Assembly (NCBI RefSeq): GCF_988243305.1
Contig: NZ_OZ547136.1
Reading direction: 5' to 3' (one strand)
Length of the DNA: 64,000 bases
The position numbers and the translations under genes are program-made. Of this stretch, positions 1,188 to 58,279 are shown piece after piece (the first letter of the stretch is position 1; each line of letters opens with the position of its first letter). Under the pieces are notes generated by a model. The model searched no databases. It saw only the letters and a list, made by a program, of their open reading frames with translations, and was not told where the DNA came from.

Positions 1188-1190
1188 GCG

Positions 1191-2063
1191 ATGTGTACAA
1201 CATGCGGTTGCGGTGAAGGCAACCTGTATATCGAGGGTGATGAACATAACCCTCATTCCGCGTTTCGTAGCGCGCCATTTGCCCCGGCGGCACGCCCGAA
1301 GATGAAAATCACCGGCATTAAAACGCCTGAATTTACCCCCAGCCAGACTGAAGAAGGCGACCTGCATTACGGTCATGGCGAAGCGGGCACTCACGCGCCG
1401 GGCATGAGCCAGCGTCGGATGCTGGAAGTCGAAATTGACGTGCTGGACAAAAATAACCGTCTGGCTGAACGCAACCGCGCGCGCTTTGCTGCCCGCAAGC
1501 AACTAGTGCTCAACCTGGTTTCCAGCCCTGGTTCCGGTAAAACCACCCTGCTGACGGAAACCTTAATGCGCCTGAAAGACAGCGTTCCGTGCGCGGTTAT
1601 TGAAGGCGACCAGCAAACCGTGAACGATGCCGCGCGCATTCGCGCTACCGGCACACCAGCGATTCAGGTGAATACCGGTAAAGGCTGCCATCTTGACGCA
1701 CAGATGATTGCCGACGCCGCGCCGCGCCTGCCACTGGACGATAACGGTATTCTGTTTATCGAAAACGTCGGCAACCTCGTGTGCCCGGCCAGCTTCGATC
1801 TCGGTGAAAAACACAAAGTGGCGGTGCTTTCCGTTACCGAAGGTGAAGACAAACCGCTGAAATATCCGCATATGTTTGCCGCAGCTTCGCTGATGCTGCT
1901 CAACAAAGTTGACTTGCTGCCGTATCTCAACTTTGACGTTGAGAAGTGCATCGCCTGCGCCCGCGAAGTCAATCCAGAAATTGAAATCATCCTTATTTCC
2001 GCCACCAGCGGCGAAGGGATGGACCAGTGGCTGAACTGGCTGGAGACACAGCGATGTGCATAG
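1191..2063 (+). CDS. hypB: Hydrogenase maturation GTPase HypB
   Basis: 290-aa [13 protein letters not shown]... with GSGKTT P-loop. Confidence 0.93.
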
Positions 2064-2326
2064 GCGTTCCCGGCCAGATCCGCACCATTGACGGCAACCA
2101 GGCGAAAGTCGACGTCTGCGGCATTCAGCGCGATGTCGATTTAACGTTAGTCGGCAGCTGCGATGAAAACGGTCAGCCACGCGTAGGCCAGTGGGTACTG
2201 GTTCACGTTGGCTTTGCCATGAGCGTAATTAATGAAGCCGAAGCGCGCGACACTCTCGACGCCTTACAAAACATGTTTGACGTTGAGCCGGATGTCGGTG
2301 CGCTGTTGTATGGCGAGGAAAAATAA
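2054..2326 (+). CDS. hypC: Hydrogenase maturation chaperone HypC
   Basis: ORF reads [28 protein letters not shown]...; start taken at the internal ATG encoding the conserved MC(I/L)G N-terminus. Confidence 0.9.
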
Positions 2327-3447
2327 TGCGTTTTGTTGATGAATATCGCGCGCCGGAACAGGTGATGCAGTTAATTGAGCATCTGCGCGAACGTGCTTCA
2401 CATCTCTCTTACACCGCCGAACGCCCTCTGCGGATTATGGAAGTGTGTGGCGGTCATACCCACGCCATTTTTAAATTCGGCCTCGACCAGTTGCTGCCGG
2501 AAAACGTTGAGTTTATCCACGGTCCCGGTTGCCCGGTGTGCGTACTGCCGATGGGCAGAATCGACACCTGCGTGGAGATTGCCAGCCATCCGGAAGTCAT
2601 CTTCTGTACCTTTGGCGACGCCATGCGCGTACCAGGGAAACAGGGTTCGCTGTTACAGGCAAAGGCACGCGGTGCCGATGTGCGCATCGTTTACTCGCCG
2701 ATGGATGCGTTGAAACTGGCGCAGGAGAATCCAACCCGCAAAGTGGTGTTCTTCGGCTTAGGTTTTGAAACTACCATGCCGACCACCGCCATCACGTTGC
2801 AACAGGCAAAAGCCCGCGATGTGCAGAATTTTTACTTCTTCTGCCAGCACATTACGCTTATCCCGACGCTGCGCAGTTTGCTGGAACAGCCAGATAACGG
2901 TATCGACGCGTTCCTCGCGCCGGGCCACGTCAGTATGGTGATCGGCACTGATGCCTATAATTTTATCGCCAGCGATTTTCATCGTCCGCTGGTGGTCGCT
3001 GGTTTCGAACCGCTTGATCTACTGCAAGGCGTGGTCATGCTGGTGGAGCAGAAAATAGCGGCCCACAGCAAGGTAGAGAATCAGTATCGCCGGGTAGTGC
3101 CGGATGCCGGTAACCTGCTGGCGCAACAGGCAATTGCCGATGTGTTCTGTGTCAACGGCGACAGCGAATGGCGCGGCTTAGGCGTGATTGAATCTTCCGG
3201 GGTGCACCTGACGCCGGATTATCAGCGATTCGATGCCGAAGCACATTTCCGCCCGGCACCGCAGCAGGTCTGCGATGACCCGCGTGCGCGTTGTGGCGAA
3301 GTATTAACGGGCAAATGTAAGCCGCATCAATGCCCGCTATTTGGTAACACCTGTAATCCTCAAACCGCGTTTGGTGCGCTGATGGTTTCCTCCGAAGGAG
3401 CGTGCGCCGCGTGGTATCAGTATCGTCAGCAGGAGAGTGAAGCGTGA
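2326..3447 (+). CDS. hypD: Hydrogenase maturation protein HypD
   Basis: 373-aa [23 protein letters not shown]... with CGxH and CPVC motifs; overlaps hypC stop. Confidence 0.93.
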   Translation: MRFVDEYRAPEQVMQLIEHLRERASHLSYTAERPLRIMEVCGGHTHAIFKFGLDQLLPENVEFIHGPGCPVCVLPMGRIDTCVEIASHPEVIFCTFGDAMRVPGKQGSLLQAKARGADVRIVYSPMDALKLAQENPTRKVVFFGLGFETTMPTTAITLQQAKARDVQNFYFFCQHITLIPTLRSLLEQPDNGIDAFLAPGHVSMVIGTDAYNFIASDFHRPLVVAGFEPLDLLQGVVMLVEQKIAAHSKVENQYRRVVPDAGNLLAQQAIADVFCVNGDSEWRGLGVIESSGVHLTPDYQRFDAEAHFRPAPQQVCDDPRARCGEVLTGKCKPHQCPLFGNTCNPQTAFGALMVSSEGACAAWYQYRQQESEA

Positions 3448-4454
3448 ATAATATCCAACTCGCCCACGGCAGCGGCGGCCAGGCGATGCAGCAATTAATC
3501 AACAGCCTGTTTATGGAAGCCTTTGCCAACCCGTGGCTGGCAGAGCAGGAAGATCAGGCCCGTCTTGATCTGGCGCAGCTGGTAGCGGAAGGCGACCGTC
3601 TGGCGTTCTCCACCGACAGTTACGTCATTGACCCGCTGTTCTTTCCTGGCGGTAATATCGGCAAGCTGGCGATTTGCGGCACCGCGAACGACGTTGCGGT
3701 CAGTGGCGCAATTCCGCGCTATCTCTCCTGTGGCTTTATCCTCGAAGAAGGATTGCCGATGGAGACACTGAAAGCCGTAGTGACCAGCATGGCAGAAACC
3801 GCCCGCGCGGCAGGCATTGCCATCGTTACTGGCGACACCAAAGTGGTGCAGCGCGGCGCGGCAGATAAACTGTTTATCAACACCGCTGGCATGGGCGCAA
3901 TTCCGGCGAATATTCACTGGGGCGCACAGACGCTAACCGCAGGCGATGTATTGCTGGTTAGCGGTACACTCGGCGACCACGGGGCGACTATCCTTAACCT
4001 GCGTGAGCAACTGGGGCTGGACGGCGAACTGGTCAGCGACTGCGCGGTACTAACGCCGCTTATTCAGACGCTGCGTGACATTCCCGGCGTGAAAGCGCTG
4101 CGTGATGCCACCCGTGGTGGTGTGAACGCGGTAGTTCATGAGTTCGCGGCAGCCTGCGGTTGCGGTATTGAAATTTCAGAAGCGGCACTGCCGGTTAAAC
4201 CTGCTGTGCGCGGCGTTTGCGAACTGCTGGGACTGGACGCCCTTAACTTTGCCAACGAAGGCAAACTGGTGATCGCCGTTGAACGCAACGCGGCAGAGCA
4301 AGTGCTGGCGGCGTTACATTCCCATCCACTGGGAAAAGACGCGGCGCTGATTGGTGAAGTGGTGGAACGTAAAGGTGTTCGTCTTGCCGGTCTGTATGGC
4401 GTGAAACGAACCCTCGATTTACCACACGCCGAACCGTTACCGCGTATATGCTAA
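3444..4454 (+). CDS. hypE: Hydrogenase maturation protein HypE
   Basis: 336-aa ORF MNNIQLAHGSGGQAMQQLIN... ending ...PRIC; overlaps hypD stop. Confidence 0.93.
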   Translation: MNNIQLAHGSGGQAMQQLINSLFMEAFANPWLAEQEDQARLDLAQLVAEGDRLAFSTDSYVIDPLFFPGGNIGKLAICGTANDVAVSGAIPRYLSCGFILEEGLPMETLKAVVTSMAETARAAGIAIVTGDTKVVQRGAADKLFINTAGMGAIPANIHWGAQTLTAGDVLLVSGTLGDHGATILNLREQLGLDGELVSDCAVLTPLIQTLRDIPGVKALRDATRGGVNAVVHEFAAACGCGIEISEAALPVKPAVRGVCELLGLDALNFANEGKLVIAVERNAAEQVLAALHSHPLGKDAALIGEVVERKGVRLAGLYGVKRTLDLPHAEPLPRIC

Positions 4455-4527
4455 TAAAATTCTAAATCTCCTATAGTTAGTCAATGACCTTTTGCACCGC
4501 TTTGCGGTGCTTTCCTGGAAGAACAAA

Positions 4528-6606
4528 ATGTCATATACACCGATGAGTGATCTCGGACAACAAGGGTTGTTCGACATCACTCGGACACTATTGCAGCAGC
4601 CCGATCTGGCCTCGCTGTGTGAGGCTCTTTCGCAACTGGTAAAGCGTTCTGCGCTCGCCGACAACGCGGCTATTGTGTTGTGGCAAGCGCAGACTCAACG
4701 TGCGTCTTATTACGCATCGCGTGAAAAAGACACCCCCATTAAATATGAAGACGAAACTGTTCTGGCACACGGTCCGGTACGCAGCATTTTGTCGCGCCCT
4801 GATACGCTGCATTGCAGTTACGAAGAATTTTGTGAAACCTGGCCGCAGCTGGCCGCAGGTGGGCTATACCCAAAATTTGGTCACTATTGCCTGATGCCAC
4901 TGGCGGCAGAAGGGCATATTTTTGGTGGCTGTGAATTTATTCGTTATGACGATCGCCCCTGGAGCGAAAAAGAGTTCAATCGTCTGCAAACATTTACGCA
5001 GATCGTTTCTGTCGTCACCGAACAAATCCAGAGTCGAGTCGTTAACAATGTTGACTATGAGTTGTTATGCCGGGAACGCGATAACTTCCGCATCCTGGTC
5101 GCCATCACCAACGCGGTGCTTTCCCGCCTGGATATGGACGAACTGGTCAGCGAAGTCGCCAAAGAAATCCATTACTATTTCGACATTGACGATATCAGCA
5201 TTGTCTTACGCAGCCACCGTAAAAACAAACTCAACATCTACTCCACTCACTATCTTGATAAACAACATCCCGCCCACGAACAGAGCGAAGTCGATGAAGC
5301 CGGAACCCTCACCGAACGCGTGTTCAAAAGCAAAGAGATGCTGCTGATTAATCTCCACGAGCGGGACGATTTAGCCCCCTATGAACGCATGTTGTTCGAC
5401 ACCTGGGGCAACCAGATTCAAACCTTGTGCCTGTTACCGCTGATGTCTGGCGATACCATGCTGGGCGTGCTGAAACTGGCGCAATGCGAAGAGAAAGTGT
5501 TTACCACTACCAATTTGAATTTACTGCGCCAGATTGCCGAACGTGTGGCAATCGCTGTCGATAACGCCCTCGCCTATCAGGAAATCCATCGTCTGAAAGA
5601 ACGGCTGGTTGATGAAAACCTCGCCCTGACCGAGCAGCTCAACAATGTTGATAGTGAATTTGGCGAGATTATTGGCCGCAGCGAAGCCATGTACAGCGTA
5701 CTTAAACAAGTTGAAATGGTGGCGCAAAGTGACAGTACTGTTCTGATCCTCGGTGAAACTGGTACAGGTAAAGAGCTGATTGCCCGCGCGATCCATAATC
5801 TCAGTGGGCGTAATAATCGCCGCATGGTCAAAATGAACTGCGCGGCGATGCCTGCCGGATTGCTGGAGAGCGATCTGTTTGGTCATGAGCGTGGGGCTTT
5901 TACCGGTGCCAGCGCCCAGCGTATCGGTCGTTTTGAACTGGCGGATAAAAGCTCCCTGTTCCTCGACGAAGTGGGCGATATGCCACTGGAGTTACAGCCG
6001 AAGTTGCTGCGTGTATTACAGGAACAGGAGTTTGAACGTCTCGGCAGCAACAAAATCATTCAGACGGACGTGCGTCTAATCGCCGCAACTAACCGCGATC
6101 TGAAAAAAATGGTCGCCGACCGAGAGTTCCGTAGCGATCTCTATTACCGCCTGAACGTATTCCCGATCCACCTGCCGCCACTACGCGAGCGTCCGGAAGA
6201 TATTCCGCTGCTGGCGAAAGCCTTTACCTTCAAAATTGCCCGTCGTCTGGGGCGTAATATCGACAGCATTCCTGCCGAGACGCTGCGCACCTTGAGCAAC
6301 ATGGAGTGGCCGGGTAACGTACGCGAACTGGAAAACGTCATTGAGCGCGCAGTATTGCTGACACGCGGCAACGTGCTGCAGCTGTCATTGCCAGATATTG
6401 TTTTACCGGAACCAGAAACGCCGCCTGCCGCAACAGTTGTCGCTCAGGAGGGCGAAGATGAATATCAGTTGATTGTTCGCGTGCTGAAAGAAACTAACGG
6501 CGTGGTTGCCGGGCCTAAAGGCGCTGCGCAACGTCTGGGGCTGAAACGCACGACCCTGCTGTCACGGATGAAGCGGCTTGGAATTGATAAATCGGCATTG
6601 ATTTAA
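4528..6606 (+). CDS. fhlA: Formate hydrogenlyase transcriptional activator FhlA (sigma54-dependent)
   Basis: ORF contains MSYTPMSDLGQQGLFDITRTLL..., GAF region, sigma54 AAA+ motifs (GETGTGKE, GAFTGA) and C-terminal HTH; start placed at internal ATG giving MSYTP. Confidence 0.92.
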   Translation: MSYTPMSDLGQQGLFDITRTLLQQPDLASLCEALSQLVKRSALADNAAIVLWQAQTQRASYYASREKDTPIKYEDETVLAHGPVRSILSRPDTLHCSYEEFCETWPQLAAGGLYPKFGHYCLMPLAAEGHIFGGCEFIRYDDRPWSEKEFNRLQTFTQIVSVVTEQIQSRVVNNVDYELLCRERDNFRILVAITNAVLSRLDMDELVSEVAKEIHYYFDIDDISIVLRSHRKNKLNIYSTHYLDKQHPAHEQSEVDEAGTLTERVFKSKEMLLINLHERDDLAPYERMLFDTWGNQIQTLCLLPLMSGDTMLGVLKLAQCEEKVFTTTNLNLLRQIAERVAIAVDNALAYQEIHRLKERLVDENLALTEQLNNVDSEFGEIIGRSEAMYSVLKQVEMVAQSDSTVLILGETGTGKELIARAIHNLSGRNNRRMVKMNCAAMPAGLLESDLFGHERGAFTGASAQRIGRFELADKSSLFLDEVGDMPLELQPKLLRVLQEQEFERLGSNKIIQTDVRLIAATNRDLKKMVADREFRSDLYYRLNVFPIHLPPLRERPEDIPLLAKAFTFKIARRLGRNIDSIPAETLRTLSNMEWPGNVRELENVIERAVLLTRGNVLQLSLPDIVLPEPETPPAATVVAQEGEDEYQLIVRVLKETNGVVAGPKGAAQRLGLKRTTLLSRMKRLGIDKSALI

Positions 6607-24949: not shown

Positions 24950-25987
24950 ATGTTTTCCGCATTGCGCCACCGTACCGCTGCCCTGGCGCTCGGCGTATGC
25001 TTTATTCTCCCCGTACACGCCTCGTCACCTAAACCTGGCGATTTTGCTAATACCCAGGCACGACATATTGCTACTTTCTTTCCGGGACGCATGACCGGAA
25101 CTCCTGCAGAAATGTTATCTGCCGATTATATTCGCCAGCAGTTTCAGCAAATGGGTTATCGCAGTGATATTCGGACATTTAATAGTCGGTATATTTATAC
25201 CGCCCGCGATAATCGCAAGAGCTGGCATAACGTGACGGGAAGTACGGTGATTGCCGCTCATGAAGGCAAAGCGCCGCAGCAGATCATCATTATGGCGCAT
25301 CTGGATACTTACGCCCCGCTGAGCGATGCTGACGCCGATGCCAATCTCGGCGGGCTGACGTTACAAGGAATGGATGATAACGCCGCAGGTTTAGGTGTCA
25401 TGCTGGAACTGGCAGAACGCCTGAAAAATACGCCTACCGAGTATGGTATTCGATTTGTGGCGACCAGTGGTGAAGAGGAAGGGAAATTAGGTGCTGAGAA
25501 TTTACTCAAGCGGATGAGTGACACCGAAAAGAAAAATACGCTGCTGGTGATTAATCTCGATAACTTAATTGTTGGCGATAAATTGTATTTCAACAGCGGC
25601 GTAAAAACCCCTGAAGCAGTAAGGAAATTAACGCGCGACAGGGCGCTGGCAATTGCGCGTAGTCATGGAATTGCCGCAACGACCAATCCGGGTTTGAATA
25701 AAAATTATCCGAAGGGTACTGGCTGTTGTAATGACGCCGAAGTTTTCGACAAAGCCGGTATTGCCGTACTTTCGGTAGAAGCAACAAATTGGAATCTTGG
25801 GAATAAGGATGGTTATCAGCAACGCGCAAAAACAGCTGCATTCCCTGCGGGAAATAGCTGGCATGACGTAAGACTGGATAATCAACAACATATTGATAAG
25901 GCACTTCCAGGAAGAATAGAACGTCGCTGCCGTGATGTTATGCGGATAATGCTACCGCTGGTGAAGGAGCTGGCGAAGGCGTCTTGA
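24950..25987 (+). CDS. iap: Alkaline phosphatase isozyme conversion aminopeptidase Iap
   Basis: 345-aa ORF with signal peptide and M28 peptidase-like body; sits immediately before the CRISPR array as in the classic iap locus. Confidence 0.9.
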   Translation: MFSALRHRTAALALGVCFILPVHASSPKPGDFANTQARHIATFFPGRMTGTPAEMLSADYIRQQFQQMGYRSDIRTFNSRYIYTARDNRKSWHNVTGSTVIAAHEGKAPQQIIIMAHLDTYAPLSDADADANLGGLTLQGMDDNAAGLGVMLELAERLKNTPTEYGIRFVATSGEEEGKLGAENLLKRMSDTEKKNTLLVINLDNLIVGDKLYFNSGVKTPEAVRKLTRDRALAIARSHGIAATTNPGLNKNYPKGTGCCNDAEVFDKAGIAVLSVEATNWNLGNKDGYQQRAKTAAFPAGNSWHDVRLDNQQHIDKALPGRIERRCRDVMRIMLPLVKELAKAS

Positions 25988-26007: not shown

Positions 26008-28414
26008 GGGAGTTCTACCGCAGGGGCGGGGAACTCCAAGTGATATCCATCATCGCATCCAGTGCGTCCGGTTTATCCCCGCTGACGCGGGGAACTCCGT
26101 GTGGGAACTACGAGTAGGCCGTTTTCTCTCGGTTTATCCCCGCTGGCGCGGGGAACTCCAATATCCGCGCCGTACCCAGCAAATGCTGACGGTTTATCCC
26201 CGCTGGCGCGGGGAACTCTACCGCATATTCACCAAAGTCCTCTATTTTGTCGGTTTATCCCCGCTGACGCGGGGAACTCGAGCGGACGCTCGACGATAAC
26301 ACCGATTTGCAAGGTTTATCCCCGCTGGCGCGGGGAACTCCAATATCCGCGCCGTACCCAGCAAATGCTGACGGTTTATCCCCGCTGGCGCGGGGAACTC
26401 TACCGCATATTCACCAAAGTCCTCTATTTTGTCGGTTTATCCCCGCTGACGCGGGGAACTCGAGCGGACGCTCGACGATAACACCGATTTGCAAGGTTTA
26501 TCCCCGCTGACGCGGGGAACTCCCGTCAGGCCGCGTCAATCGTTTAGCCCACGGCGGTTTATCCCCGCTGACGCGGGGAACTCACATGGAGTACATCATG
26601 AACAGACCACTGACCCGGTTTATCCCCGCTGACGCGGGGAACTCAGATTTTAGATGAGATGAAGTTGAATAGTTTACGGTTTATCCCCGCTGACGCGGGG
26701 AACTCATAAATCATTCTTTTCTTTCATCACCTACGACCGGTTTATCCCCGCTGACGCGGGAAACTCCTGTAGACGTTCTTTGGTAATGGTTTTCATCACG
26801 GTTTATCCCCGCTGACGCGGGGAACTCAATACTACAAACATCAAATGCGTTATTTACTGCGGTTTATCCCCGCTGACGCGGGGAACTCTAAGCCGTGACG
26901 AGGGTCGCCGCTGGCGTCAACGGTTTATCCCCGCTGACGCGGGGAACTCTTACAGATGTAATAAATCACACATGTAATAGCCGGTTTATCCCCGCTGACG
27001 CGGGGAACTCGATCGGGAGGATTTTAAACGCTGGTCAATGGCCGGTTTATCCCCGCTGACGCGGGGAACTCAATTACCGGGTGTCTAGTGCTCATACGCA
27101 GCCCGGTTTATCCCCGCTGACGCGGGGAACTCAATTACTGGGTGTCTCGTGCTCATATGCAGCCCGGTTTATCCCCGCTGACGCGGGGAACTCTTTCCCC
27201 CATGCGGGAAGCGCGTGCGATTTCGCGGTTTATCCCCGCTGACGCGGGGAACTCTTTTAGGTGTGCTGAGATTATTTGTCGCGGCGCGGTTTATCCCCGC
27301 TGACGCGGGGAACTCTTATCAGCAGCCAGACCAGCATTCGGGGAATACGGTTTATCCCCGCTGACGCGGGGAACTCATGATCAAATCAGTGCCGAGCTGG
27401 TGCAGATGCGGTTTATCCCCGCTGACGCGGGGAACTCAAAACAGGTTTGCCTGTCGCCCTCCGGTCCACCGGTTTATCCCCGCTGACGCGGGGAACTCCA
27501 ATCCGTTTATTACTTTATTTCTGCCGCCTTCGGTTTATCCCCGCTGACGCGGGGAACTCCAACGTTTTGGTAATCAACGGAAGGAGCTTCGCGGTTTATC
27601 CCCGCTGACGCGGGGAACTCAATAAATTCAGGAGCGGTAACGATATATTTAACGGTTTATCCCCGCTGACGCGGGGAACTCGTAAAGGCGTTGCCCTGTT
27701 CCGTCGCTGTTGTCGGTTTATCCCCGCTGACGCGGGGAACTCATCCGTTAATTATTGAGAGAGCTATCAGCTATCGGTTTATCCCCGCTGACGCGGGGAA
27801 CTCACCATCAGTCCTTGAGCCGAGAAAATCGCCGCCGGTTTATCCCCGCTGACGCGGGGAACTCAGCTATATACGGGAGCAAGATTATAATATCTGCGGT
27901 TTATCCCCGCTGACGCGGGGAACTCTTTCGCCCAATCTTGCGCGCTCTGACCTATCTGGGTTTATCCCCGCTGACGCGGGGAACTCGTGGGTGGCTGCCG
28001 TCGCGGCTGGTGCTGCGGCGGTTTATCCCCGCTGACGCGGGGAACTCACTGAGTATTTGCCTCAAGTGATGTACTGGTCCGGTTTATCCCCGCTGACGCG
28101 GGGAACTCAATATCGCCGTCAATGCCAATATTTTTCCGCGCGGTTTATCCCCGCTGACGCGGGGAACTCGTGAAAATAGAGGAAGGGCGCATTATTGGCG
28201 GCGGTTTATCCCCGCTGACGCGGGGAACTCGCGTCAGAAGCGATTGAATCAATAGCGGATCACGGTTTATCCCCGCTGACGCGGGGAACTCGTCCATTTT
28301 CCCCCTGGAGGCTGTAATTCACCGCGGTTTATCCCCGCTGACGCGGGGAACTCTTATTCAGCCAACGCGGCGCGGGGCTTGTTTGCGGTTTATCCCCGCT
28401 GACGCGGGGAACTC
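26008..28414 (-). CRISPR. Type I-E CRISPR array: 39 full 29-bp repeats plus one degenerate terminal repeat, 39 spacers (36 unique)
   Basis: Repeat CGGTTTATCCCCGCTG(G/A)CGCGGGGAACTC on the plus strand at about 61-bp period from 26069 to 28386; degenerate repeat 26008-26036 at the iap end; leader at the cas2 end, so the array is transcribed on the minus strand. Confidence 0.97.
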
Positions 28415-28519
28415 TCTAAAAGTATACATTTGTTCTTAAAGCATTTTTTCCCATAAAAACAACCCACCAACCTTAATGTAACATTTCCTTATTATTAAAG
28501 ATCAGCTAATTCTTTGTTT
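28415..28519 (-). promoter_or_regulatory. CRISPR leader
   Basis: AT-rich about 105-bp segment between the last repeat and the cas2 stop. Confidence 0.7.
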
Positions 28520-29723
<1,204 letters not shown>

Positions 29724-29738
29724 TTTATTACACCTAAA

Positions 29739-30338
29739 TCACAGTGGAGCCAAAGATAGCAAGCCACATCCCATCGATTTAGCTGGCCCAATACCTTGCT
29801 GTACAAGATCTATTAACGCTGGCGCGTCGTTGATGGTGATCACCCCTTCAAAGCAAACCGTTTGAATCTTTCCACTTTTACCATCACCAGAAAAATACTG
29901 TGGCCGTTCCGATATGGGATGCACATCTTCAACGCGCGCCGCATTGCCCAATTTACGTTGCAACCACGCGATTTGTTCTGCTTCTTTTATTAACGGAACC
30001 CGACAGCGTTTAATATTCCCTTTACTATCCAGGCGCTTTTGATTGTCGAGAATAGTTTTGATCGGATTTGCCCGAAGCCGAAAATAGAGTGGAACACCAA
30101 CCTGAAGTTGAAATTCAACCTGTTTAGTTTTAATGACTGTCGCAACAGCAGTTGAAACAGGCATTTGCGCTGACTGCAATAAAACATGACAGCCTTCTGG
30201 TGTGTTTCGCTTCTCAACATGAAAAAGAAAATCACGAGCAGCATCCGGTCTGTTTGGAAATAAATGCCATAATCCCTGGTGAAGTTGGTAAAGATCCCTG
30301 CTCCAGGCCCTGGCAATGATGACTTTACTGAGATACAT
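29739..30338 (-). CDS. casE: crRNA endoribonuclease Cas6e (CasE)
   Basis: 199-aa ORF MYLSKVIIARAWSRDLYQLHQGLWHLFPNRPDAARDFLFHVEKR... Confidence 0.95.
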   Translation of the reverse strand: MYLSKVIIARAWSRDLYQLHQGLWHLFPNRPDAARDFLFHVEKRNTPEGCHVLLQSAQMPVSTAVATVIKTKQVEFQLQVGVPLYFRLRANPIKTILDNQKRLDSKGNIKRCRVPLIKEAEQIAWLQRKLGNAARVEDVHPISERPQYFSGDGKSGKIQTVCFEGVITINDAPALIDLVQQGIGPAKSMGCGLLSLAPL

Positions 30339-30999
30339 CCATACCTCCTTTAATCACATACCATTCTCGGGAAGCAAATTGTCGAGGTAAGGTGATCATC
30401 GGTTCGTCGCGCGCCGTAAATTTTAAATGATGCCCTGTAACTGATTCCTCACTATAAATATCGCCGCCAACGGGCTCATAATTTAATAGCGCCTTCTGAG
30501 GATCCGATGCCTGACATGTCCCCAAAAAAAGCGGGTGTGTTAGTGGGCAACTTCTCCGCCCCAGGTAGGGTGTATACCGAGGCTTTAATACTGCTTTTTC
30601 AAGTTCTGAGATAACCATCGTTGCATGGGGTGTTAACCAGAGAGCGACGGTAAAGGAGGCATCACATAAATATTCGCGCCATGTTTGAATCGTTTCATGA
30701 CTTTTCAAACCACGGTAATCTTCTCGCGCTCCAAGGACTGTATGGTAATCACGCAACCCCGTTACAGACACACGACGATCGTCAAGAATGAGTTCATCGC
30801 AGCGCACTGCAAATTGCACACTCTCTGATAACACCTGTAATGAAGAAGTATCATCACGTTGGATCCCAAGACAAGCCCCGAGTAGCCCTAATAACCCGCT
30901 TCGGGTCGGAAAACTTCCGGTAGGTCGCGTTCCTTCAAAGGTCGGCAGCCCCCAGGCTTGCATTGGCCCAGCAAGCCGCAAGATCAAATAAGATCTCAT
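30325..30999 (-). CDS. casD: Cascade subunit Cas5e (CasD)
   Basis: ORF contains MRSYLILRLAGPMQAWGLPTFEGTRPTG...; start placed at the second ATG. Confidence 0.93.
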   Translation of the reverse strand: MRSYLILRLAGPMQAWGLPTFEGTRPTGSFPTRSGLLGLLGACLGIQRDDTSSLQVLSESVQFAVRCDELILDDRRVSVTGLRDYHTVLGAREDYRGLKSHETIQTWREYLCDASFTVALWLTPHATMVISELEKAVLKPRYTPYLGRRSCPLTHPLFLGTCQASDPQKALLNYEPVGGDIYSEESVTGHHLKFTARDEPMITLPRQFASREWYVIKGGMDVSQ

Positions 31000-31001
31000 G
31001 T

Positions 31002-32093
31002 TCATGCCTCGCCATTATTACGAACCCAGGATTTTAACTGTTCTAAAGTAGGCATTTGTTTAACTTGAGCAGTAATTGGGTCTACATCAGATAAGCTGAA
31101 TTGCGCAGCAGCTCCGTTCAGACCATATCCATTGGCAACGCGATCCCAATATTGATTAAACGCCTGTATAGACGGTTGCAAAAAGCCATCTTTCGCTTTA
31201 ACAGCTTTTTCAAAAGCATTTGCCATAGAAAGTGGCATATCGGAGAAATTAACCATTACCATATCCGCAGGGTTAAAAGCGGCATAAGTACGCTGTTTTG
31301 CTCCAGGGACCTCTGTTGCCAGCATATGAACAACATTGGTTGCAATTTCCAGAGCCTGCTCCCTGGAGGCACCACCTAAATTTTCCTGAAGTTGAGCGAG
31401 GTTAATGTTGGCGTAACGATAAAAAACACCCGATGAAAATTCCTGAGTTCCCAGATGTGCAGAACCTTGTTCCTGTAAATCATCTACAGCGGTGAACCAG
31501 TCAATATCTGAATCAACCTGATGAGTAGTGATCGCATGCGCAATGGACATTGCACCATCAACTTTTCCCAACTCACTCATCATGCCGCTGGTTGCCATTC
31601 TTCCGCTAAGCGCAATATCAACACCCTGCTGTAAATTCACACGTATGGCGGCAATATCTTCCTTAAGAACTTTGAGCAGCTTTTTATCATCCAGATTATC
31701 AGCCTCTGCTTTTGCAACCTGCTCACAGAACCAGGCTATTTCTCCCACAACCCAGGGAGTAACCGCATCGGCAGAAATCTTTTCGGCTTCATCAACTAAT
31801 TTACCGGAGAGCAGCGCTAATGTCTTATCGATGATTTTTTGGTCAAAACGTTCACCAAGTTTTTGCCGAAGAACATCACGTAATTGTGCAAGATGAATTG
31901 TTCTGAGACTGGATTCACCAATATTTTGTGCGTAATAATCACTTTTACGCATCGCACGTTTAAGGCTTTGACTTGAAATTCTTACTCGTCTTTTCCCGCC
32001 GAAAATAGCGTCTTTCTGCATGTTCATATCGTCGCGGTTCAGACATGAAGGGCTGTGAGAGATCAGAACATGAATATTGATAAAGTTAGACAT
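31002..32093 (-). CDS. casC: Cascade backbone subunit Cas7e (CasC)
   Basis: 363-aa [52 protein letters not shown]... Confidence 0.95.
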
Positions 32094-32105
32094 AGAAAGG
32101 TTTCC

Positions 32106-32588
32106 TTACGCATTTTTGTTTGTGGTCAATACAAAATCTTCCAGAAGTTGCTGGCGTTCGCGCTTTCCCCACCAGGTCAACATCCTGGCCATTAATGGCC
32201 AGTCAAGTACGGGTTCGGCGTGAGTAAGTAATCGACGTAACTGGACCATATCGGCTGTTCTGTCAGCCCGAATTAATTGAAAGATACGGCGCTCGTTAAT
32301 TCTTCCACTATTGGCTAAAGCTCTTCCCAACGAGATACCTGTTGTTTGCTCCGGTTTTTTGTCCTGATGTCGGATGACATTCTTTCCTGCGCTCAGGCAA
32401 AACACCATGCGCAAAAGAGCCTGCTGGTGACGTGGGTTTTCCCAACCAAAAGGTTGCACCAACCGATAAAACGCAGGGATATCGCGTAATTCATCAGGTT
32501 CTGAAACACGTCTAATTTGCGCACATGCTCCATTATCCAGTTGTTGCCAGGCTCGATATAAAGCCATTGCATCAATTTCATCAGCCAT
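32106..32588 (-). CDS. casB: Cascade small subunit Cse2 (CasB)
   Basis: 160-aa ORF MADEIDAMALYRAWQQLDNGACAQIRRVSEPDELRDIPAFYRLVQPFG... Confidence 0.95.
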   Translation of the reverse strand: MADEIDAMALYRAWQQLDNGACAQIRRVSEPDELRDIPAFYRLVQPFGWENPRHQQALLRMVFCLSAGKNVIRHQDKKPEQTTGISLGRALANSGRINERRIFQLIRADRTADMVQLRRLLTHAEPVLDWPLMARMLTWWGKRERQQLLEDFVLTTNKNA

Positions 32589-34089
32589 TTGATGGCCCTC
32601 CTTGCGGTTTTAACTCCCGTAAATGTTTGTATAGCGTGGCGCGGGCAAGCGCTAATGTGCTTATTAATTTAGGATGATGTGCATAGGGAGCTACAGATTG
32701 ATTAAATAGCATTTCACACAATTGATGAAGTTTGTCTCGTAAATCAGCTATTACCTCATCAGCCTGGGAAAAATTAATTTTCGCCAATACATCTGGAATT
32801 AATAATTCACTCTGTCGATAGAAATGCCTTTCTGCAGTCTCATGAACAGAGACTCCGGCCCCTTTGAAGTCTTTATTTTTAAACCCTTCTGCAAAGGTAT
32901 ATAACGCCTTGCGTAAGGCTGTTTTATACCCCAAACCAACAGTCACTATTTCGTTTATAACATTGCCGTATTGTTGCCACCCCTGATTAAACATCAGCAC
33001 ATCATGACGTCGTTCAAGAATAGATGCTTGATTATTACGATATCCCCCCATAATCAATTCAAGAGGACTTTGCGGCGCAATATTTCTGAATTGATTCACA
33101 ACCGCCGCCACGCGATTTCCATTTTCATTTTGAATAATCTTATCTACCACAACTCGGCTGATTTGCGTCCATGATGGTGCGGAGGTGGTGAAAGCAAGAA
33201 ATTTTTCCTCAACCTTCCCTTTCTTGACTGTTACCAGACAAGGGGAATGCGGATGGGGCCATAGTCCATTAACTGTAAAGGTAAATTTTTCCTTAAGAAA
33301 ACCGGTATAACGCAAATTGCTTTCCTGTCCACAGCAAGAACATTTACCAATCCCAATGGGATCGCATAGTTCAATATGCGCTGGTTGCCAGAATAAACCA
33401 CGGACAAACCCAATTGACGAAGCTGGCACAGATTCATTGGGCTTGATAGGCTTAATCCAGGTAGGTTGGTTTTCCGTATGTAATTCATTGGGAAATTGTT
33501 TTTGAAGACGAGGTATTGTGAGGACATTGAGTAATACCGTCGAGCGAAGATCGATCCCACATACGAAGGTGGTTATAGGTGTTCCTCCACGTAAACCGCT
33601 TTTAAAGCCACCACCAAAACCAGGTGCCTGATTCGCCTGGTTGAATAACGCAATCGCAGTGCATCCACCACATAATGCTTCACCCTGCCCCGGTTGATTG
33701 ACAAATGCACAATTCGTCGCGCCGCTTACCCCAGCCAACAGTTTTTCCATTGGAGTCACATCATTTGCTTTGACACCTTTGGTCTGCATAAAGGGATGTT
33801 CTGCGTGATTAAGGTAGAACATATCTATCCACGGCGCGATGAGTTGTTGAAACTCATCTTCAGTGAGCGGATTCATTATGCGATGTCGAAATTCAACGTC
33901 ATCTTTTGCCGGGGCGATAATTTGTCCAATGCAAACCAGCAGTGCTAAAGCGGCCAGTTCCATATCGTCACGGGGCAAACTTAATCGCCACTGATCTCTA
34001 CTGCAGTATAGCGATTGCAGATTTAGGATTTGGACTTTCCCCCCGTTTCGCGGGCGTACAGGGATCCAGTTATCAATAAGCAAATTCAT
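32581..34089 (-). CDS. casA: Cascade large subunit Cse1 (CasA)
   Basis: 502-aa ORF MNLLIDNWIPVRPRNGGKVQILNLQSLYCSRDQWRLSLPRDDMELAA... Confidence 0.95.
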   Translation of the reverse strand: MNLLIDNWIPVRPRNGGKVQILNLQSLYCSRDQWRLSLPRDDMELAALALLVCIGQIIAPAKDDVEFRHRIMNPLTEDEFQQLIAPWIDMFYLNHAEHPFMQTKGVKANDVTPMEKLLAGVSGATNCAFVNQPGQGEALCGGCTAIALFNQANQAPGFGGGFKSGLRGGTPITTFVCGIDLRSTVLLNVLTIPRLQKQFPNELHTENQPTWIKPIKPNESVPASSIGFVRGLFWQPAHIELCDPIGIGKCSCCGQESNLRYTGFLKEKFTFTVNGLWPHPHSPCLVTVKKGKVEEKFLAFTTSAPSWTQISRVVVDKIIQNENGNRVAAVVNQFRNIAPQSPLELIMGGYRNNQASILERRHDVLMFNQGWQQYGNVINEIVTVGLGYKTALRKALYTFAEGFKNKDFKGAGVSVHETAERHFYRQSELLIPDVLAKINFSQADEVIADLRDKLHQLCEMLFNQSVAPYAHHPKLISTLALARATLYKHLRELKPQGGPSNG

Positions 34090-34504
34090 TTGTTCTCCTT
34101 CATATGCTCCGACATTTCTCCTGCATTTCTATACGTCGGAACACTTCCGTTATCGGTAAAAACAAAGAAAAAATACGGCGTAATTAATTCAATAATCACA
34201 TTCACTGCAAAAATATATTCATTGGTTTAATACAATTAACCTATGCATATATTAAGATGTGTTGAATTGTTTAAAGACAATAATGCATGCATTTCAAATC
34301 TGCAAGTTATTCGTTTTATTATCAAAGAAATTTTTTAGTTATAATAATTACCATAAATTTTATTACATAAAATATTCATACTGTGAATATAAAATCTCAT
34401 ACCGGGAAATTAAAAGAAGATGTACATTGTGCACCTTCCCTACTTAAGTAGGGATAAACCGTTATTGGTCTTGTTATCGTCATTGATACCAATCATTCCC
34501 GAAG
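34090..34504 (-). promoter_or_regulatory. AT-rich casA-cas3 intergenic region; expected site of the Cascade operon promoter and divergent antisense promoter
   Basis: 415-bp strongly AT-rich non-coding segment directly upstream of casA; in E. coli type I-E loci this region carries the H-NS-repressed, LeuO-activated promoter (established knowledge; exact -10/-35 elements not pinned down here). Confidence 0.45.
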
Positions 34505-37171
34505 TTATTTGGGATTTGCAGGGATGACTCTGGTCATCCCTTCATCCCGAGTGTAGGTAATAACAATATTATTACCCTGCCAGATCCATCCATCCTGATT
34601 CTGTTTCCCTTCCAGCCAAAGTAACCCATCTTCATCTACTACTTCAGAAAAACTACGTTTCCAGGTGAAGGGTACATTGACGCGATTAAGTGCTAACGCC
34701 TCATACTGCTGTTCATGACTTAGGTCCTCGTAGACCTGGCCATCGAGCAGTTGTTTACCTGAAGACGTTTGTACATAAGGCAATAATGGCAGGCTCATTT
34801 CCCCATCCCTCGTTACCGCAAGAATGGTTTCATCGTTATCCTGCAAGCTATATTCTTCAGCCCACTGCAGAACCTTACGAGCCTTGAACCTTTTTTCACA
34901 CTCGGCGCTTTCAAACTTATCCATGCCTTTGATGACCCATTCTGGCTCATCCATTTCCGCATCATCGTAAATGCTATCCAGCCATTGCCGGTAGGCATCA
35001 GGGAAAAATAAGGATGCTCCATTAAGTTCCTCAATATGTTGCTGCGTCCGCCACATGACTCTAACGTTGCTATAAATATGCTCATGTCGTCCGTAACCTT
35101 CGCCATCAGGCAGCAAAATGGTGGCAAGAGGAATCTCAAAACCAACGGGGCGATATTTACGATGATGGCGATGTAAACGGCCCAATCGTTGGAAAAGCAA
35201 ATCTGCGGGACAATGCTGAGTAATTAACCAATCAAAATCAACGTCGAGTGATTGTTCCACGACCTGTGTGGCAACAAGTATTCTTCCAACATTTCGCTCC
35301 CCATTTTTCCCAAAATTACTAATAACACGATTCTCTTTTTCACGGCGATCGTTCAGCGTAAAGCGCGCATGAAACAAATCTATATCTACTTGCGTGTTAT
35401 TTAGTTCCTTTAACCGTTGGTGGCATAGTTGTGCAACATCAACCAAATTGCAGATAAGACAGACTTGTGCACCCGCATTTGCCGCTGCGATCATTCGCTC
35501 TAACATCGTAAGGTCAGGTAACATGTCAGCTAAATAAATAGGTTCTGGCTGAATCGAAAAGCGGGGCGGGAGTTGTTCTGGATGAGCTAACAGATCAAAA
35601 CGTTGCGCACCATTCACACCTCGCCAGTTAATGAGTGGATATGCGGAGTTATTTTCCTCTGGATCTGTATGCAGACCATAAGTATCCAGAAGTTTCTGTT
35701 TTTGTTTCATTGGTAGAGTTGCGGAAAGAAGAATAACACTCCCCCCCACATCAGCCTGAGCCTTGAGCACAGCCTCCAGCAAGCCGTTCATATACGTGTC
35801 GTAAGCATGAACTTCATCAACAATTAAAACACTTCGACCAATTCCCAAACCACGGATAAAGCGGTGTTTAACTGGCAATACCGATATCAACACCTGATCA
35901 ATCGTGCAAACGCCTATTTGCCCAAGAAACACTTTCTTATTGCTTTGTGACAACCATTGGCAACACTGAACCCACGCTTCTTCTTGCCCCTGCTCAGTAA
36001 ATGCGCGTGATTTTATTGATTGAAAAAGGTGGTTAAAACGTGAATTACCATGAGCAAGAATAAGATTTGGGGAGGTAAATAAACGGCTCGCGTTCGCTTC
36101 CATTCTGCTGAGCATTGCATTTGCAGTAGCTTGTGTAGGGAGGGCAAAAATAACACTATCCGCAAGTTGTTGGTCAATAAGTTTCCAGGCATAGGCCAGC
36201 GCTGTTTCGGTTTTACCTGATCCCGTAGGTGCCTCAATCACCGTCAGCCCGGGAGCTGTAGGAAGAGCATCAACCAACACCTGTAATTGTCTTGGTTGAT
36301 AGCCATTGTCCAGTAAGGCATGTACGCCGTCATAACTACGCTTATTTGATACAAGGCCACTCAACTCAAGTACCCGACACGCATCCTGTTGTCTATCCTG
36401 AAAATATTTTCTTAGCGCTTGTATGCCTGAAGGTGCATCTTCTTTGAATAGAAAGGTATCCGTTGTGGTCCAGGAACCTAACCAGTCAGCAAGCGAGCAA
36501 AAACCTGCTAACAATGATGAACAATCAGGTGGTATATCGTTTATAGATAACCCGGCTGGTGTTAAAAATAATGCTTCGAGTACAGATATCCACTCCTCAC
36601 GAGCCTGTTTATCTTGCGCAGCATAAGATGCCAGAGAAGCTGGCATTTCCCAACGCGACTTATCTTGATCCTGGGAATGTAATATAAAACCATGATGTCC
36701 TGTAACGGCCTCTACCCAAGGAAACCAGGACTCATAAGGATGAGGAGCGGCATCAAAAAAACTGAAAAAATCCCCGGGAGATTGCTCTGAAAGTGAATCC
36801 TGGTTAAACCAATACAGACCGGCTGCACCATGATTAAATTTACGGCACATTTGTGTTGATGGACCATTAAGTGATGGCGTTGCAGGATTTAATTTCAGCC
36901 AACTTTCTGCTGATTTATATTGGAATCGTATATCAAACTTTCCGATATCATGAAGGGCAATGAAAAATAACAGCCAGGCTTTCACCTTCTGTTTTGATAG
37001 CATTTCATTTCGGCAAAAAGCATTTTGTAGTACGACTGATTGATCCCACCAGCAATCTGCAACAGCTGCAACATCCAGGCAATGATAAATCAACAGATGA
37101 ATATCATTTCCTTTCGTCAGGCTTTTTGAGGATTTCCCCCAGTAATGACATATATATTTAAAAGGTTCCAT
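34505..37171 (-). CDS. cas3: CRISPR-associated nuclease/helicase Cas3 (type I-E)
   Basis: 888-aa ORF MEPFKYICHYWGKSSKSLTKGNDIHLLIYHCLDVAAV... with HD domain followed by DEAD/DEAH helicase motifs (APTGSGKT, DEVH). Confidence 0.95.
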   Translation of the reverse strand: MEPFKYICHYWGKSSKSLTKGNDIHLLIYHCLDVAAVADCWWDQSVVLQNAFCRNEMLSKQKVKAWLLFFIALHDIGKFDIRFQYKSAESWLKLNPATPSLNGPSTQMCRKFNHGAAGLYWFNQDSLSEQSPGDFFSFFDAAPHPYESWFPWVEAVTGHHGFILHSQDQDKSRWEMPASLASYAAQDKQAREEWISVLEALFLTPAGLSINDIPPDCSSLLAGFCSLADWLGSWTTTDTFLFKEDAPSGIQALRKYFQDRQQDACRVLELSGLVSNKRSYDGVHALLDNGYQPRQLQVLVDALPTAPGLTVIEAPTGSGKTETALAYAWKLIDQQLADSVIFALPTQATANAMLSRMEANASRLFTSPNLILAHGNSRFNHLFQSIKSRAFTEQGQEEAWVQCCQWLSQSNKKVFLGQIGVCTIDQVLISVLPVKHRFIRGLGIGRSVLIVDEVHAYDTYMNGLLEAVLKAQADVGGSVILLSATLPMKQKQKLLDTYGLHTDPEENNSAYPLINWRGVNGAQRFDLLAHPEQLPPRFSIQPEPIYLADMLPDLTMLERMIAAANAGAQVCLICNLVDVAQLCHQRLKELNNTQVDIDLFHARFTLNDRREKENRVISNFGKNGERNVGRILVATQVVEQSLDVDFDWLITQHCPADLLFQRLGRLHRHHRKYRPVGFEIPLATILLPDGEGYGRHEHIYSNVRVMWRTQQHIEELNGASLFFPDAYRQWLDSIYDDAEMDEPEWVIKGMDKFESAECEKRFKARKVLQWAEEYSLQDNDETILAVTRDGEMSLPLLPYVQTSSGKQLLDGQVYEDLSHEQQYEALALNRVNVPFTWKRSFSEVVDEDGLLWLEGKQNQDGWIWQGNNIVITYTRDEGMTRVIPANPK

Positions 37172-37477
37172 TAATAGCCTCCCTGTTTTTTTAGTATTAT
37201 CGATGATATCAGTGGACTATTTTTCGATGCTGCTCATAAATATCGAATTACAGTGATATACACATGTCTTGCCTCCCTGCAAAGAAGAGACTAACATTCG
37301 AATTGCTTAGGTTCGAACGCTGGCCTCAGGTTGATAGAAATATCGCCTGGGGCTTTTGTCCATCTGGAACCTCGCGAATGCTTAACGCCAGACAGCCTCA
37401 AGCACCCAACGCCATTCTATACCTGATAATTCTTCCAGCGGCGTTCACGTTTAAAATCAGGAATGCTGCTCGCAAAA

Positions 37478-53324: not shown

Positions 53325-53370
53325 GTGAGGAAGGCCGGGCGGGAAACTGCCCGGCCTGAACATACCTGAA

Positions 53371-58274: not shown

Positions 58275-58279
58275 TCGTA

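What the first reader, a model, noticed from the sequence alone, without database searches (positions are those of the whole stretch)
26008..28414. Large type I-E array (36 unique spacers) next to an intact cas3-cse-cas1-cas2 operon
All eight cas genes are full length with no frameshifts, and the array has 39 regular repeats. Each spacer is a candidate record of a past invader, and the set can be used for strain typing. The spacer content cannot be interpreted without a database search.
Basis: seen in the sequence. Interest (0 to 1): 0.45.

Follow-up and report, generated by a model that had tools for sequence, protein, structure and literature searches.

The report
Ordinary E. coli CRISPR array, decoded

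Summary
Window 26008-28414 holds 39 regular 29-nt repeats plus one degenerate terminal repeat. That gives 39 spacers, 36 of them unique, because a 182-nt block of three units is duplicated in tandem. The array is read on the minus strand. Its leader is identical to that of K-12, and all eight cas genes are full length and collinear with K-12 (97.3% nt).

This is the canonical E. coli iap-CRISPR1-cas locus, so the kind is already known. The spacer set itself occurs in none of 5,426 complete E. coli genomes.

Database searches found sources for 17 of the 36 unique spacers:
- 13 lie in three temperate-phage families: a prophage in strain STEC384, a lambdoid prophage in JNE151685, and P2-like prophages.
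- 2 match other lambdoid prophages.
- 1 matches IncFIB plasmids.
- 1 (S17) matches the core gene bcsE at 32/32 in 94% of E. coli genomes.

Twelve of the 17 protospacers carry the AAG PAM. Two odd repeat ends (C and T) equal the last PAM base of their protospacers. Spacers against the same phage sit next to each other more often than chance (P=0.003).

S17's protospacer has a GCG PAM, which published PAM screens predict to be largely inert, so the spacer is probably harmless. Interest is low.

The parts
26008..28414 (-). CRISPR1 array (iap-cas locus): 40 repeats including one degenerate, 39 spacers, 36 unique. S1 (newest) is 28354-28385 and S39 (oldest) is 26037-26068.
26008..26036 (-). Degenerate terminal (trailer) repeat. 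The adjacent spacer S39 is the species-wide anchor spacer.
   Evidence: S39 is found in most of the 3,888 genomes hit. The last K-12 spacer differs from it by 1 nt.
26131..26494 (-). Tandem duplication of a 182-nt block of three repeat-spacer units (S32-S34 = S35-S37). Relative NY1601 has a single copy.
27072..27164 (-). Adjacent spacers S22 and S21. They differ at 3 of 32 positions and come from the same protospacer in variants of a P2-like prophage.
   Evidence: A third variant sits in E. coli W arrays.
27377..27408 (-). Spacer S17, a 32/32 match to the chromosomal core gene bcsE. The protospacer PAM is GCG, with CTT immediately 3'.
27958..27986 (-). Repeat whose last base (crRNA sense) is C instead of G. 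It precedes S8, whose protospacer has PAM AAC.
   Evidence: PMC3338789.
26494..26522 (-). Repeat ending in T. It precedes S32, whose protospacer has PAM ATT. The duplicated copy is at 26312-26340.
28415..28519 (-). AT-rich leader, 105/105 identical to the K-12 CRISPR1 leader.
28520..28804 (-). cas2e (94 aa)
28806..29723 (-). cas1e (305 aa)
29739..30338 (-). cas6e/casE (199 aa)
30325..30999 (-). cas5e/casD (224 aa)
31002..32093 (-). cas7e/casC (363 aa)
32106..32588 (-). cse2/casB (160 aa)
32581..34089 (-). cse1/casA (502 aa), aligned end to end with K-12 CasA of PDB 4QYZ.
34090..34504 (-). cas3-cse1 intergenic region, the site of the Pcas promoter in K-12. It is 98.1% identical to K-12.
   Evidence: The promoter role comes from established knowledge and was not tested.
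34505..37171 (-). cas3 (888 aa). The HD (H74, D75), Walker A (GSGKT) and DEVH motifs are intact.
24950..25987 (+). iap, the conserved flanking gene at the trailer end.

Best explanation
This is the canonical chromosomal type I-E CRISPR-Cas locus of Escherichia coli: CRISPR1 between iap and cas2, with the cas operon next to cysH. Its array is exceptionally long.

The mechanism is inferred from the K-12 system, with which every part is collinear:
- Cas1-Cas2 insert 33-bp fragments at the leader end. The last base of each new repeat comes from the PAM.
- The array is transcribed from the leader on the minus strand.
- Cas6e cuts within each repeat at the base of its hairpin, giving 61-nt crRNAs.
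- Cascade (Cse1, Cse2, Cas7, Cas5, Cas6e) finds matching DNA that carries a 5'-AAG PAM.
- Cas3 then degrades that DNA.

Shown here: the array is mainly a record of temperate phages. At least 15 spacers match prophages of other E. coli strains. Thirteen of those fall in three phage families, and spacers against the same phage tend to be neighbours. That fits acquisition in bursts, possibly by priming. One spacer matches IncFIB plasmids.

One spacer (S17) was taken from E. coli chromosomal DNA (bcsE). Its target carries GCG at the PAM position. This is expected to block both interference and priming, which would explain why the spacer persists beside intact cas genes.

The array also grew by a three-unit tandem duplication. 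Together with the cas operon, it lies in a recombination block shared with otherwise divergent strains.
For: - Repeats, spacing and orientation.
- Repeat hairpin: a 7-bp stem. The majority C-to-U variant lies in the loop and leaves the folding energy unchanged.
- cas genes: all eight give full-length matches to type I-E equivalog models. They are collinear with K-12 at 97.3% nt, have no internal stops and show 1-31 aa changes each. The leader is 105/105 identical. Cas3 catalytic motifs are intact.
- Host: E. coli. The flanks are 99.5% identical and the cas operon about 100% identical to RefSeq strains.
- Prophage in STEC384: S10, S14 and S26 with 0 mismatches, S4 with 1, S5 with 4, all with PAM AAG.
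- Prophage in JNE151685: S8 with 0 mismatches (AAC), S7 with 1 (AAG), S32 with 1 (ATT), S33 with 1 (AGG).
- P2-like prophages: S12 and S13 with 0 mismatches (AAG) and S21/S22 with 3 and 4 mismatches in N1420. S21 has 0 mismatches (AAG) in strain 40EC.
- Other targets: S23 and S24 with 0 mismatches (AAG) in lambdoid prophages. S30 matches IncFIB plasmids at 30/32.
- PAM: 12 of 17 protospacers carry AAG, against 1/64 expected by chance.
- Control: shuffled spacers gave 0 hits at 7 or fewer mismatches in 20 rounds.
- Repeat ends: the C and T ends equal PAM position -1 of S8 and S32, as described experimentally (PMC3338789).
- Clustering: 5 adjacent same-target pairs against 1.22 expected, P=0.003.
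- S17: 32/32 in bcsE in 5,112 of 5,426 genomes, with PAM GCG in K-12. PAMs with C at -3 or -2 are enriched among those giving neither interference nor priming (PMC4678831).
Against: - No expression or activity data can be obtained from sequence. Type I-E in E. coli K-12 is H-NS-silenced in the laboratory (established knowledge), so present-day immunity is unproven.
- 19 of the 36 unique spacers have no protospacer match. Twelve of those, including the three newest, have no match of any kind; the other seven (S9, S11, S15, S18, S20, S31, S38) recur only in other strains' arrays.
- Strand bias expected from priming is seen only for the P2-like phage (4 of 4 on one strand). For the other two phages the strands are mixed.
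- Whether this strain's own bcsE carries the S17 protospacer cannot be checked, because bcsE lies outside the window.
- The GCG PAM was not tested directly. Its inertness is extrapolated from the statement about C at -3 or -2.
Confidence: 0.9

Rival explanations
1. The locus is a silent fossil. The cas operon is intact but permanently repressed, the array is old, and strains differ through recombination and deletion rather than recent spacer uptake. It gives no immunity today.
For: - The cas operon is an island of near-identity (1-2 mismatches in 8,986 nt) between flanks that diverge by 0.4-2.5% from the same two strains. It therefore moved by recombination.
- The spacer order in Z1323HEC0462 (S9, X, S23, S25, S12, S13, S39) cannot be derived from this array by deletion alone.
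- A chromosome-derived spacer is tolerated.
- Arrays in natural isolates are reported to be stable over years (PMC10910852 abstract).
- H-NS silencing is established knowledge.
Against: - Eight spacers (S1-S8) sit on the leader side of S9, the first spacer of Z1323HEC0462, whose cas operon differs by 1 nt.
- Many spacers match extant prophages perfectly and with the correct AAG PAM.
- None of the eight cas genes shows any decay.
Confidence: 0.3
2. S17 is a working self-targeting spacer. It would either guide Cascade to bcsE to modulate cellulose and biofilm production, or act as an autoimmunity hazard that forces the system to stay off.
For: - The match is 32/32 to a core gene in 94% of E. coli genomes.
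- The crRNA would pair with the coding strand of bcsE.
- The cas genes are intact.
Against: - The PAM is GCG. C at -2 belongs to the class enriched for no interference and no priming, and it resembles the repeat's own CCG self-signal.
- The target lies about 1.39 kb into a 1.57-kb gene, a poor site for repression.
- About 10% of complete E. coli genomes carry self-targeting spacers, mostly not against prophages, so this is common and apparently tolerated (PMC10910852).
Confidence: 0.04
3. The large size is partly an artefact. The 182-nt triplet duplication would be an assembly error in a repetitive region.
For: The two copies are 100% identical and NY1601 has a single copy.
Against: - The repeats bounding the two copies differ. 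The repeat at 26312 has GGCGCG and the one at 26494 has GACGCG. A junction like this is what unequal crossing-over between repeats would produce.
- Even without the duplication the array has 36 spacers.
Confidence: 0.05

Closest known systems
E. coli K-12 type I-E CRISPR-Cas locus (CRISPR1, also called CRISPR 2.1, iap-cas2...cas3-cysH)
   Same: Same chromosomal position, gene order and gene lengths. The cas operon is 97.3% identical at nucleotide level and the leader is 105/105 identical. Repeat length and hairpin are the same, and the trailer anchor spacer differs by 1 nt.
   Different: There are 39 spacers here; 12 K-12 spacers were parsed, plus the anchor spacer. No spacer other than the anchor is shared. 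Most repeats carry a C-to-U change in the hairpin loop.
CRISPR1 arrays of E. coli NY1601 (NZ_CM135959.1) and Z1323HEC0462 (NZ_CP148331.1)
   Same: Their cas operons differ by only 2 and 1 nt over 8,986 nt. NY1601 shares S18, S21, S22, S31-S34, S38 and S39 in the same order. Z1323HEC0462 shares S9, S12, S13, S23, S25 and S39.
   Different: Their leader ends differ: NY1601 has 9 private spacers and the window has 17. They lack the triplet duplication and S17. The Z1323HEC0462 order is permuted. Their flanks diverge by 0.4-2.5%, so the strains are not clonal.
Natural E. coli CRISPR1 arrays surveyed by Dion et al. 2024 (PMC10910852)
   Same: In that survey too, spacers mostly match prophages, about 60% of protospacers were identified, and self-targeting spacers occur in about 10% of genomes.
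   Different: Those 1,048 arrays held 2-32 spacers, with a mean of 11. This array, with 39 spacers (36 unique), exceeds that range.
Laboratory spacer acquisition in E. coli type I-E (Swarts et al. 2012, PMC3338789)
   Same: AAG PAM, a last repeat base derived from the PAM, and several spacers against one target.
   Different: Here the same signatures appear in a natural array, not in an induced laboratory strain. Strand bias is clear for only one of the three phage families.

Membership tests
Type I-E CRISPR-Cas (E. coli K-12 type) | 29-nt partly palindromic repeat GAGTTCCCCGCG(C/T)CAGCGGGGATAAACCG that forms a 7-bp hairpin | tested here: met
   39 regular copies. Both variants have the same predicted fold, -15.1 kcal/mol.
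Type I-E CRISPR-Cas (E. coli K-12 type) | Spacers of about 32 nt, giving a 61-nt unit | tested here: met
   36 spacers of 32 nt, one of 33 nt and two of 31 nt.
Type I-E CRISPR-Cas (E. coli K-12 type) | Gene set and order cas3-cse1-cse2-cas7-cas5-cas6e-cas1-cas2 | tested here: met
   All eight pass the NCBIfam type I-E cut-offs at full length and are collinear with K-12.
Type I-E CRISPR-Cas (E. coli K-12 type) | Cas3 with an HD nuclease domain and SF2 helicase motifs | tested here: met
   H74/D75, GSGKT and DEVH are present. The Cas3 equivalog model scores 1,609 bits.
Type I-E CRISPR-Cas (E. coli K-12 type) | AT-rich leader between cas2 and the first repeat | tested here: met
   105/105 identical to the K-12 leader.
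Type I-E CRISPR-Cas (E. coli K-12 type) | Protospacers preceded by a 5'-AAG PAM | tested here: met
   12 of 17 located protospacers have AAG. The others have AAC, ATT, AGG, TAG and GCG.
Type I-E CRISPR-Cas (E. coli K-12 type) | Last base of the repeat derived from PAM position -1 | tested here: met
   A repeat ending in C precedes S8 (PAM AAC). A repeat ending in T precedes S32 and S35 (PAM ATT). The rule comes from PMC3338789.
Type I-E CRISPR-Cas (E. coli K-12 type) | crRNA processing, Cascade assembly and Cas3-dependent interference | not testable with these tools
   Sequence only. Inferred from 96.5-99.5% protein identity to K-12.
Self-targeting (autoimmune) spacer | Spacer and matching protospacer in the same genome | tested here: inconclusive
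   No hit in the window at 7 or fewer mismatches. bcsE lies outside the window. The protospacer is present in 5,112 of 5,426 complete E. coli genomes.
Self-targeting (autoimmune) spacer | Interference-proficient PAM at the chromosomal protospacer | tested here: not met
   The PAM is GCG in K-12. C at -2 is in the class enriched for no interference and no priming (PMC4678831).
Primed adaptation signature | Several spacers against one invader, clustered in the array | tested here: met
   5, 4 and 4 spacers against three phage families. Adjacency test P=0.003.
Primed adaptation signature | New spacers drawn from the same strand as the priming protospacer | tested here: inconclusive
   P2-like phage: 4 of 4 on one strand. 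The STEC384 and JNE151685 prophages show mixed strands.

The most novel reading that the evidence does not exclude
In this lineage the type I-E system may have been naturally active recently. Eight leader-end spacers were added after the split from an array whose cas operon differs by a single nucleotide. Four of them (S4, S5, S7, S8) hit phages that older spacers already target, which looks like priming in the wild. The chromosome-derived spacer S17 would persist only because its GCG PAM makes it invisible. If so, this strain would be a rare natural E. coli in which CRISPR adaptation and tolerance of self spacers could be studied without artificial de-repression.
Probability: 0.15. Interest if true: 0.4.

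Novelty: already known. Interest (0 to 1): 0.2.

Why it matters
It matters little for discovery, because this is the best-studied CRISPR-Cas locus there is.

- **Typing.** The array is a precise strain marker. It is absent from all 5,426 complete E. coli genomes searched.
- **Infection history.** The array is readable: three temperate-phage families, two further lambdoid prophages and one IncFIB plasmid family.
- **Natural confirmation of laboratory findings.** It shows the AAG PAM, PAM-derived repeat ends, clustered acquisition, and tolerance of a self-derived spacer that has a non-permissive PAM.

Tried and rejected
- **IMG/VR viral contigs.** Scans for S1, S2, S3 and S6, with N at every sixth position, gave no hits. 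The positive control S10, which has a perfect prophage match in STEC384, also gave none. These negatives are therefore uninformative.
- **INPHARED phage search.** It gave only S23, at 30/32, in a phage labelled Stenotrophomonas, plus a partial bcsE hit. Sequenced phage genomes are a poor reference for these spacers; prophages in E. coli genomes are far better.
- **S39 plasmid hit.** This is not a target. The plasmid carries a captured chromosomal cas-CRISPR-iap block.
- **Rfam.** No family matched the repeats.
- **Finding the source assembly.** A look-up using the spurious ORF inside the array (26101-26478) failed.
- **Literature.** A search for a natural bcsE-matching spacer found nothing relevant.
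- **S17 as a 'flipped' spacer.** I considered this because CTT lies immediately 3' of the protospacer, which is AAG on the other strand. The register is off by one base from a simple flip of the AAG-defined 33-mer. It is also +2 from an upstream AAG. Its origin as a flipped or slipped acquisition remains unresolved.
- **Closest relatives.** I did not check bcsE in the two closest strains. They are not clonal with this one, so the result would add little to the 94% prior.
- **Working note.** The scripting machine's /data folder received only one newly fetched locus per script call, so some loci had to be fetched again or read by hand.

Full report
**1. Observation**

The region 26008-28414 is a CRISPR array, exactly as described.
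- A pattern scan finds 39 copies of the 29-nt unit CGGTTTATCCCCGCTGACGCGGGGAACTC on the plus strand, from 26069 to 28414. 32 are exact, 6 have one mismatch and 1 has two.
- A degenerate 40th repeat lies at 26008-26036.
- The unit length is 61 nt.
- There are 39 spacers: 36 of 32 nt, one of 33 nt and two of 31 nt. 36 are unique. S35-S37 repeat S32-S34 through a perfect 182-nt tandem duplication, 26131-26312 and 26313-26494.
- I number spacers from the leader. S1 is 28354-28385 and S39 is 26037-26068.

**2. Orientation and repeats**

The array is read on the minus strand. The AT-rich leader (28415-28519) lies next to cas2, and the degenerate repeat lies at the iap end.

In crRNA sense the repeat is GAGTTCCCCGCGTCAGCGGGGATAAACCG.
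- It differs from the K-12 consensus by one C-to-U change in the tetraloop of a 7-bp hairpin. The predicted fold and energy are unchanged.
- A few trailer-end repeats keep the K-12 form.
- Rfam has no matching family.

**3. cas operon**

Eight ORFs on the minus strand match the NCBIfam type I-E models end to end, well above the curated cut-offs:

| Gene | Window coordinates |
|---|---|
| cas3 | 34505-37171 |
| cse1 | 32581-34089 |
| cse2 | 32106-32588 |
| cas7 | 31002-32093 |
| cas5 | 30325-30999 |
| cas6e | 29739-30338 |
| cas1 | 28806-29723 |
| cas2 | 28520-28804 |

- Against K-12 substr. GM4792, the 8,986-nt block is collinear at 97.3% identity.
- Every protein has the K-12 length, no internal stop, and 1 to 31 substitutions.
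- The leader is 105/105 identical.
- The Cas3 HD, Walker A and DEVH motifs are intact.
- Cse1 aligns end to end with K-12 CasA of PDB 4QYZ.

'Intact' is therefore supported at the sequence level. Expression cannot be judged from sequence.

**4. Host and relatives**

The flanks (cysC-cysN-cysD-iap) are 99.5% identical to many E. coli chromosomes. The locus is the standard iap-CRISPR1-cas-cysH site.

No complete RefSeq E. coli genome (5,426 searched) holds this array. Two strains have a nearly identical cas operon:
- **NY1601** (2 mismatches in 8,986 nt). It shares S18, S21, S22, S31-S34, S38 and S39 in the same order, without the duplication, and has nine private leader-end spacers.
- **Z1323HEC0462** (1 mismatch in 8,986 nt). 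Its array reads S9, X, S23, S25, S12, S13, S39, where X is a spacer not present in the window.

The Z1323HEC0462 order cannot be obtained from the window's order by deletion alone. My inference is a block duplication followed by different deletions in the two lineages. The S32-S34 duplication shows that such events happen in this array.

Neither strain is clonal with the window strain. The iap side diverges by 0.4-0.9% and cysHIJ by 1.8-2.5%, and further out the sequences become 100% identical again. The cas operon and part of the array therefore form a recombination block.

**5. Spacer sources**

I searched the concatenated unique spacers against three collections: phages, plasmids and complete E. 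coli genomes. I then scanned the matched prophages with all spacers, allowing mismatches.

| Target | Spacers (mismatches, PAM) |
|---|---|
| Prophage of about 44 kb at the uspF-ttcA site of STEC384 | S10, S14, S26 (0, AAG); S4 (1, AAG); S5 (4, AAG) |
| Lambdoid HK97-like prophage of JNE151685 | S8 (0, AAC); S7 (1, AAG); S32 (1, ATT); S33 (1, AGG) |
| P2-like prophage of N1420 | S12, S13 (0, AAG); S21 (3); S22 (4); all on one strand |
| P2-like prophage of 40EC | S21 (0, AAG) |
| Lambdoid prophage exonuclease gene, CFSAN061769 | S23 (0, AAG) |
| Lambdoid prophage, RM10042 | S24 (0, AAG) |
| Small gene of Salmonella IncFIB plasmids | S30 (30/32, TAG) |
| Core gene bcsE | S17 (32/32, GCG) |

- In total 17 of 36 unique spacers are placed, and 12 of the 17 have the AAG PAM.
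- Shuffled spacers gave no hit at 7 or fewer mismatches in 20 rounds.
- Two spacers of the window's second array also hit the JNE151685 prophage.

**6. Signatures of the acquisition mechanism**

- **PAM-derived repeat ends.** The repeat before S8 ends in C, and the S8 protospacer has PAM AAC. The repeats before S32 and S35 end in T, and that protospacer has PAM ATT. This is the PAM-derived last repeat base described experimentally by Swarts et al. 2012 (PMC3338789).
- **Clustering.** Spacers against the same phage are neighbours five times: S4-S5, S7-S8, S12-S13, S21-S22 and S32-S33. Label shuffling expects 1.22 such pairs (P=0.003). That fits uptake in bursts.
- **Strand bias.** The bias expected from priming is clear only for the P2-like phage.
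- **A recurrent protospacer.** S21 and S22 are two versions of one protospacer, differing at 3 positions. E. coli W carries a third version, so this site has been sampled repeatedly.

**7. The self-derived spacer S17**

- S17 (27377-27408) matches bcsE at 32/32 in 5,112 of 5,426 complete E. coli genomes.
- The site is about 1.39 kb into the 1.57-kb gene, and the crRNA would pair with the coding strand.
- In K-12 the three bases 5' of the protospacer are GCG, and CTT follows it.
- Xue et al. 2015 report that PAMs with C at -3 or -2 are enriched in the class that gives neither interference nor priming (PMC4678831). GCG also resembles the repeat's own CCG.
- I infer that S17 is tolerated because it is inert.
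- bcsE lies outside the window, so self-targeting in this particular genome is likely but not shown. No self-match exists inside the window.
- About 10% of complete E. coli genomes carry self-targeting spacers, mostly against non-prophage DNA (PMC10910852). This is not unusual.

**8. Mechanism, with status of each step**

Shown from sequence:
- The parts list and leader-end polarity.
- The AAG PAM and the PAM-derived repeat ends.
- Temperate-phage and plasmid sources for the spacers.
- The tandem duplication.
- Recombination of the cas-array block between lineages.

Inferred from K-12 biochemistry (established knowledge):
- Integration by Cas1-Cas2 at the leader.
- Cas6e processing into 61-nt crRNAs.
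- R-loop formation by Cascade and degradation of the target by Cas3.
- Repression by H-NS and activation by LeuO.

Not testable here: whether the system is expressed or protective in this strain.

**9. Comparison and novelty**

Every defining feature of the E. coli K-12-type I-E system that sequence can test is met. The locus is a member of that system, and the kind is already known.

What is particular to this copy:
- Its size: 39 spacers, against 2-32 (mean 11) in 1,048 surveyed CRISPR1 arrays.
- Its private spacer set.
- The three-unit duplication.
- Spacer S17.

**10. Verdict**

The requested database search raises rather than lowers the functional relevance. The result still matches what is already published for E. 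coli.

- Interest: 0.2.
- Most novel reading not excluded: recent natural adaptation, with priming in the wild and an inert self spacer. Probability about 0.15.

Noticed in passing
window 53963-54418 (plus remnant 53370-53459): A second type I-E array (CRISPR2, ygcE-queE intergenic region). It has 8 repeats of the K-12 form and 7 spacers, with its leader from 54419 onward, plus a two-repeat remnant about 500 nt away. Two of its spacers match the same JNE151685 prophage as S7, S8, S32 and S33 (2 and 4 mismatches, AAG PAM).
   Followed up: partly
window 28415-37400 compared with L016 and L018: The cas operon is an island of near-identity (1-2 mismatches in 8,986 nt) to strains NY1601 and Z1323HEC0462. 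The flanking cysHIJ genes diverge by 1.8-2.5% and the iap side by 0.4-0.9%. This points to recent recombinational transfer of the cas-array block.
   Followed up: partly
L007 (plasmid NZ_LC542972.1, pIOMTU792), locus 1-5119: A conjugative IncHI2 plasmid carries a chromosomal E. coli cas7e-cas5e-cas6e-cas1e-cas2e-CRISPR-iap block about 2 kb from blaCTX-M-15. The spacer S39 'hit' on this plasmid is the array's anchor spacer, not a target.
   Followed up: no
L003 (OM816834.1, Stenotrophomonas phage vB_SmeS_BUCT708) compared with L005: The early region of this phage, labelled as a Stenotrophomonas phage, has the same gene order as an E. coli lambdoid prophage: integrase, DUF4224, Gp157, then a large exonuclease-family gene. 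It carries the S23 protospacer at 30/32. The host label may deserve a second look.
   Followed up: no
window 55636-60644: This segment is absent from K-12, where yqcG-ygcG sit. In the relatives it holds LemA and TPM/YgcG-family genes. Window 59217-60644 aligns to neither NY1601 nor Z1323HEC0462.
   Followed up: no
window 27743-27774 (S11), 27194-27225 (S20), 27499-27530 (S15), 27560-27591 (S14), 26889-26920 (S25): Single spacers recur, exactly or with 1 mismatch, in arrays that otherwise share only the anchor spacer with this one. S11 occurs in ST648 and ECONIH1, S20 in 118UI, and S15 in A30. This suggests either repeated independent capture of favoured protospacers or recombination between arrays.
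   Followed up: no
window 26738-26766: One repeat has G-to-A on the plus strand (GGGAAACTC). This turns a C-G pair of the crRNA hairpin into a U-G wobble (predicted -12.2 against -15.1 kcal/mol).
   Followed up: partly
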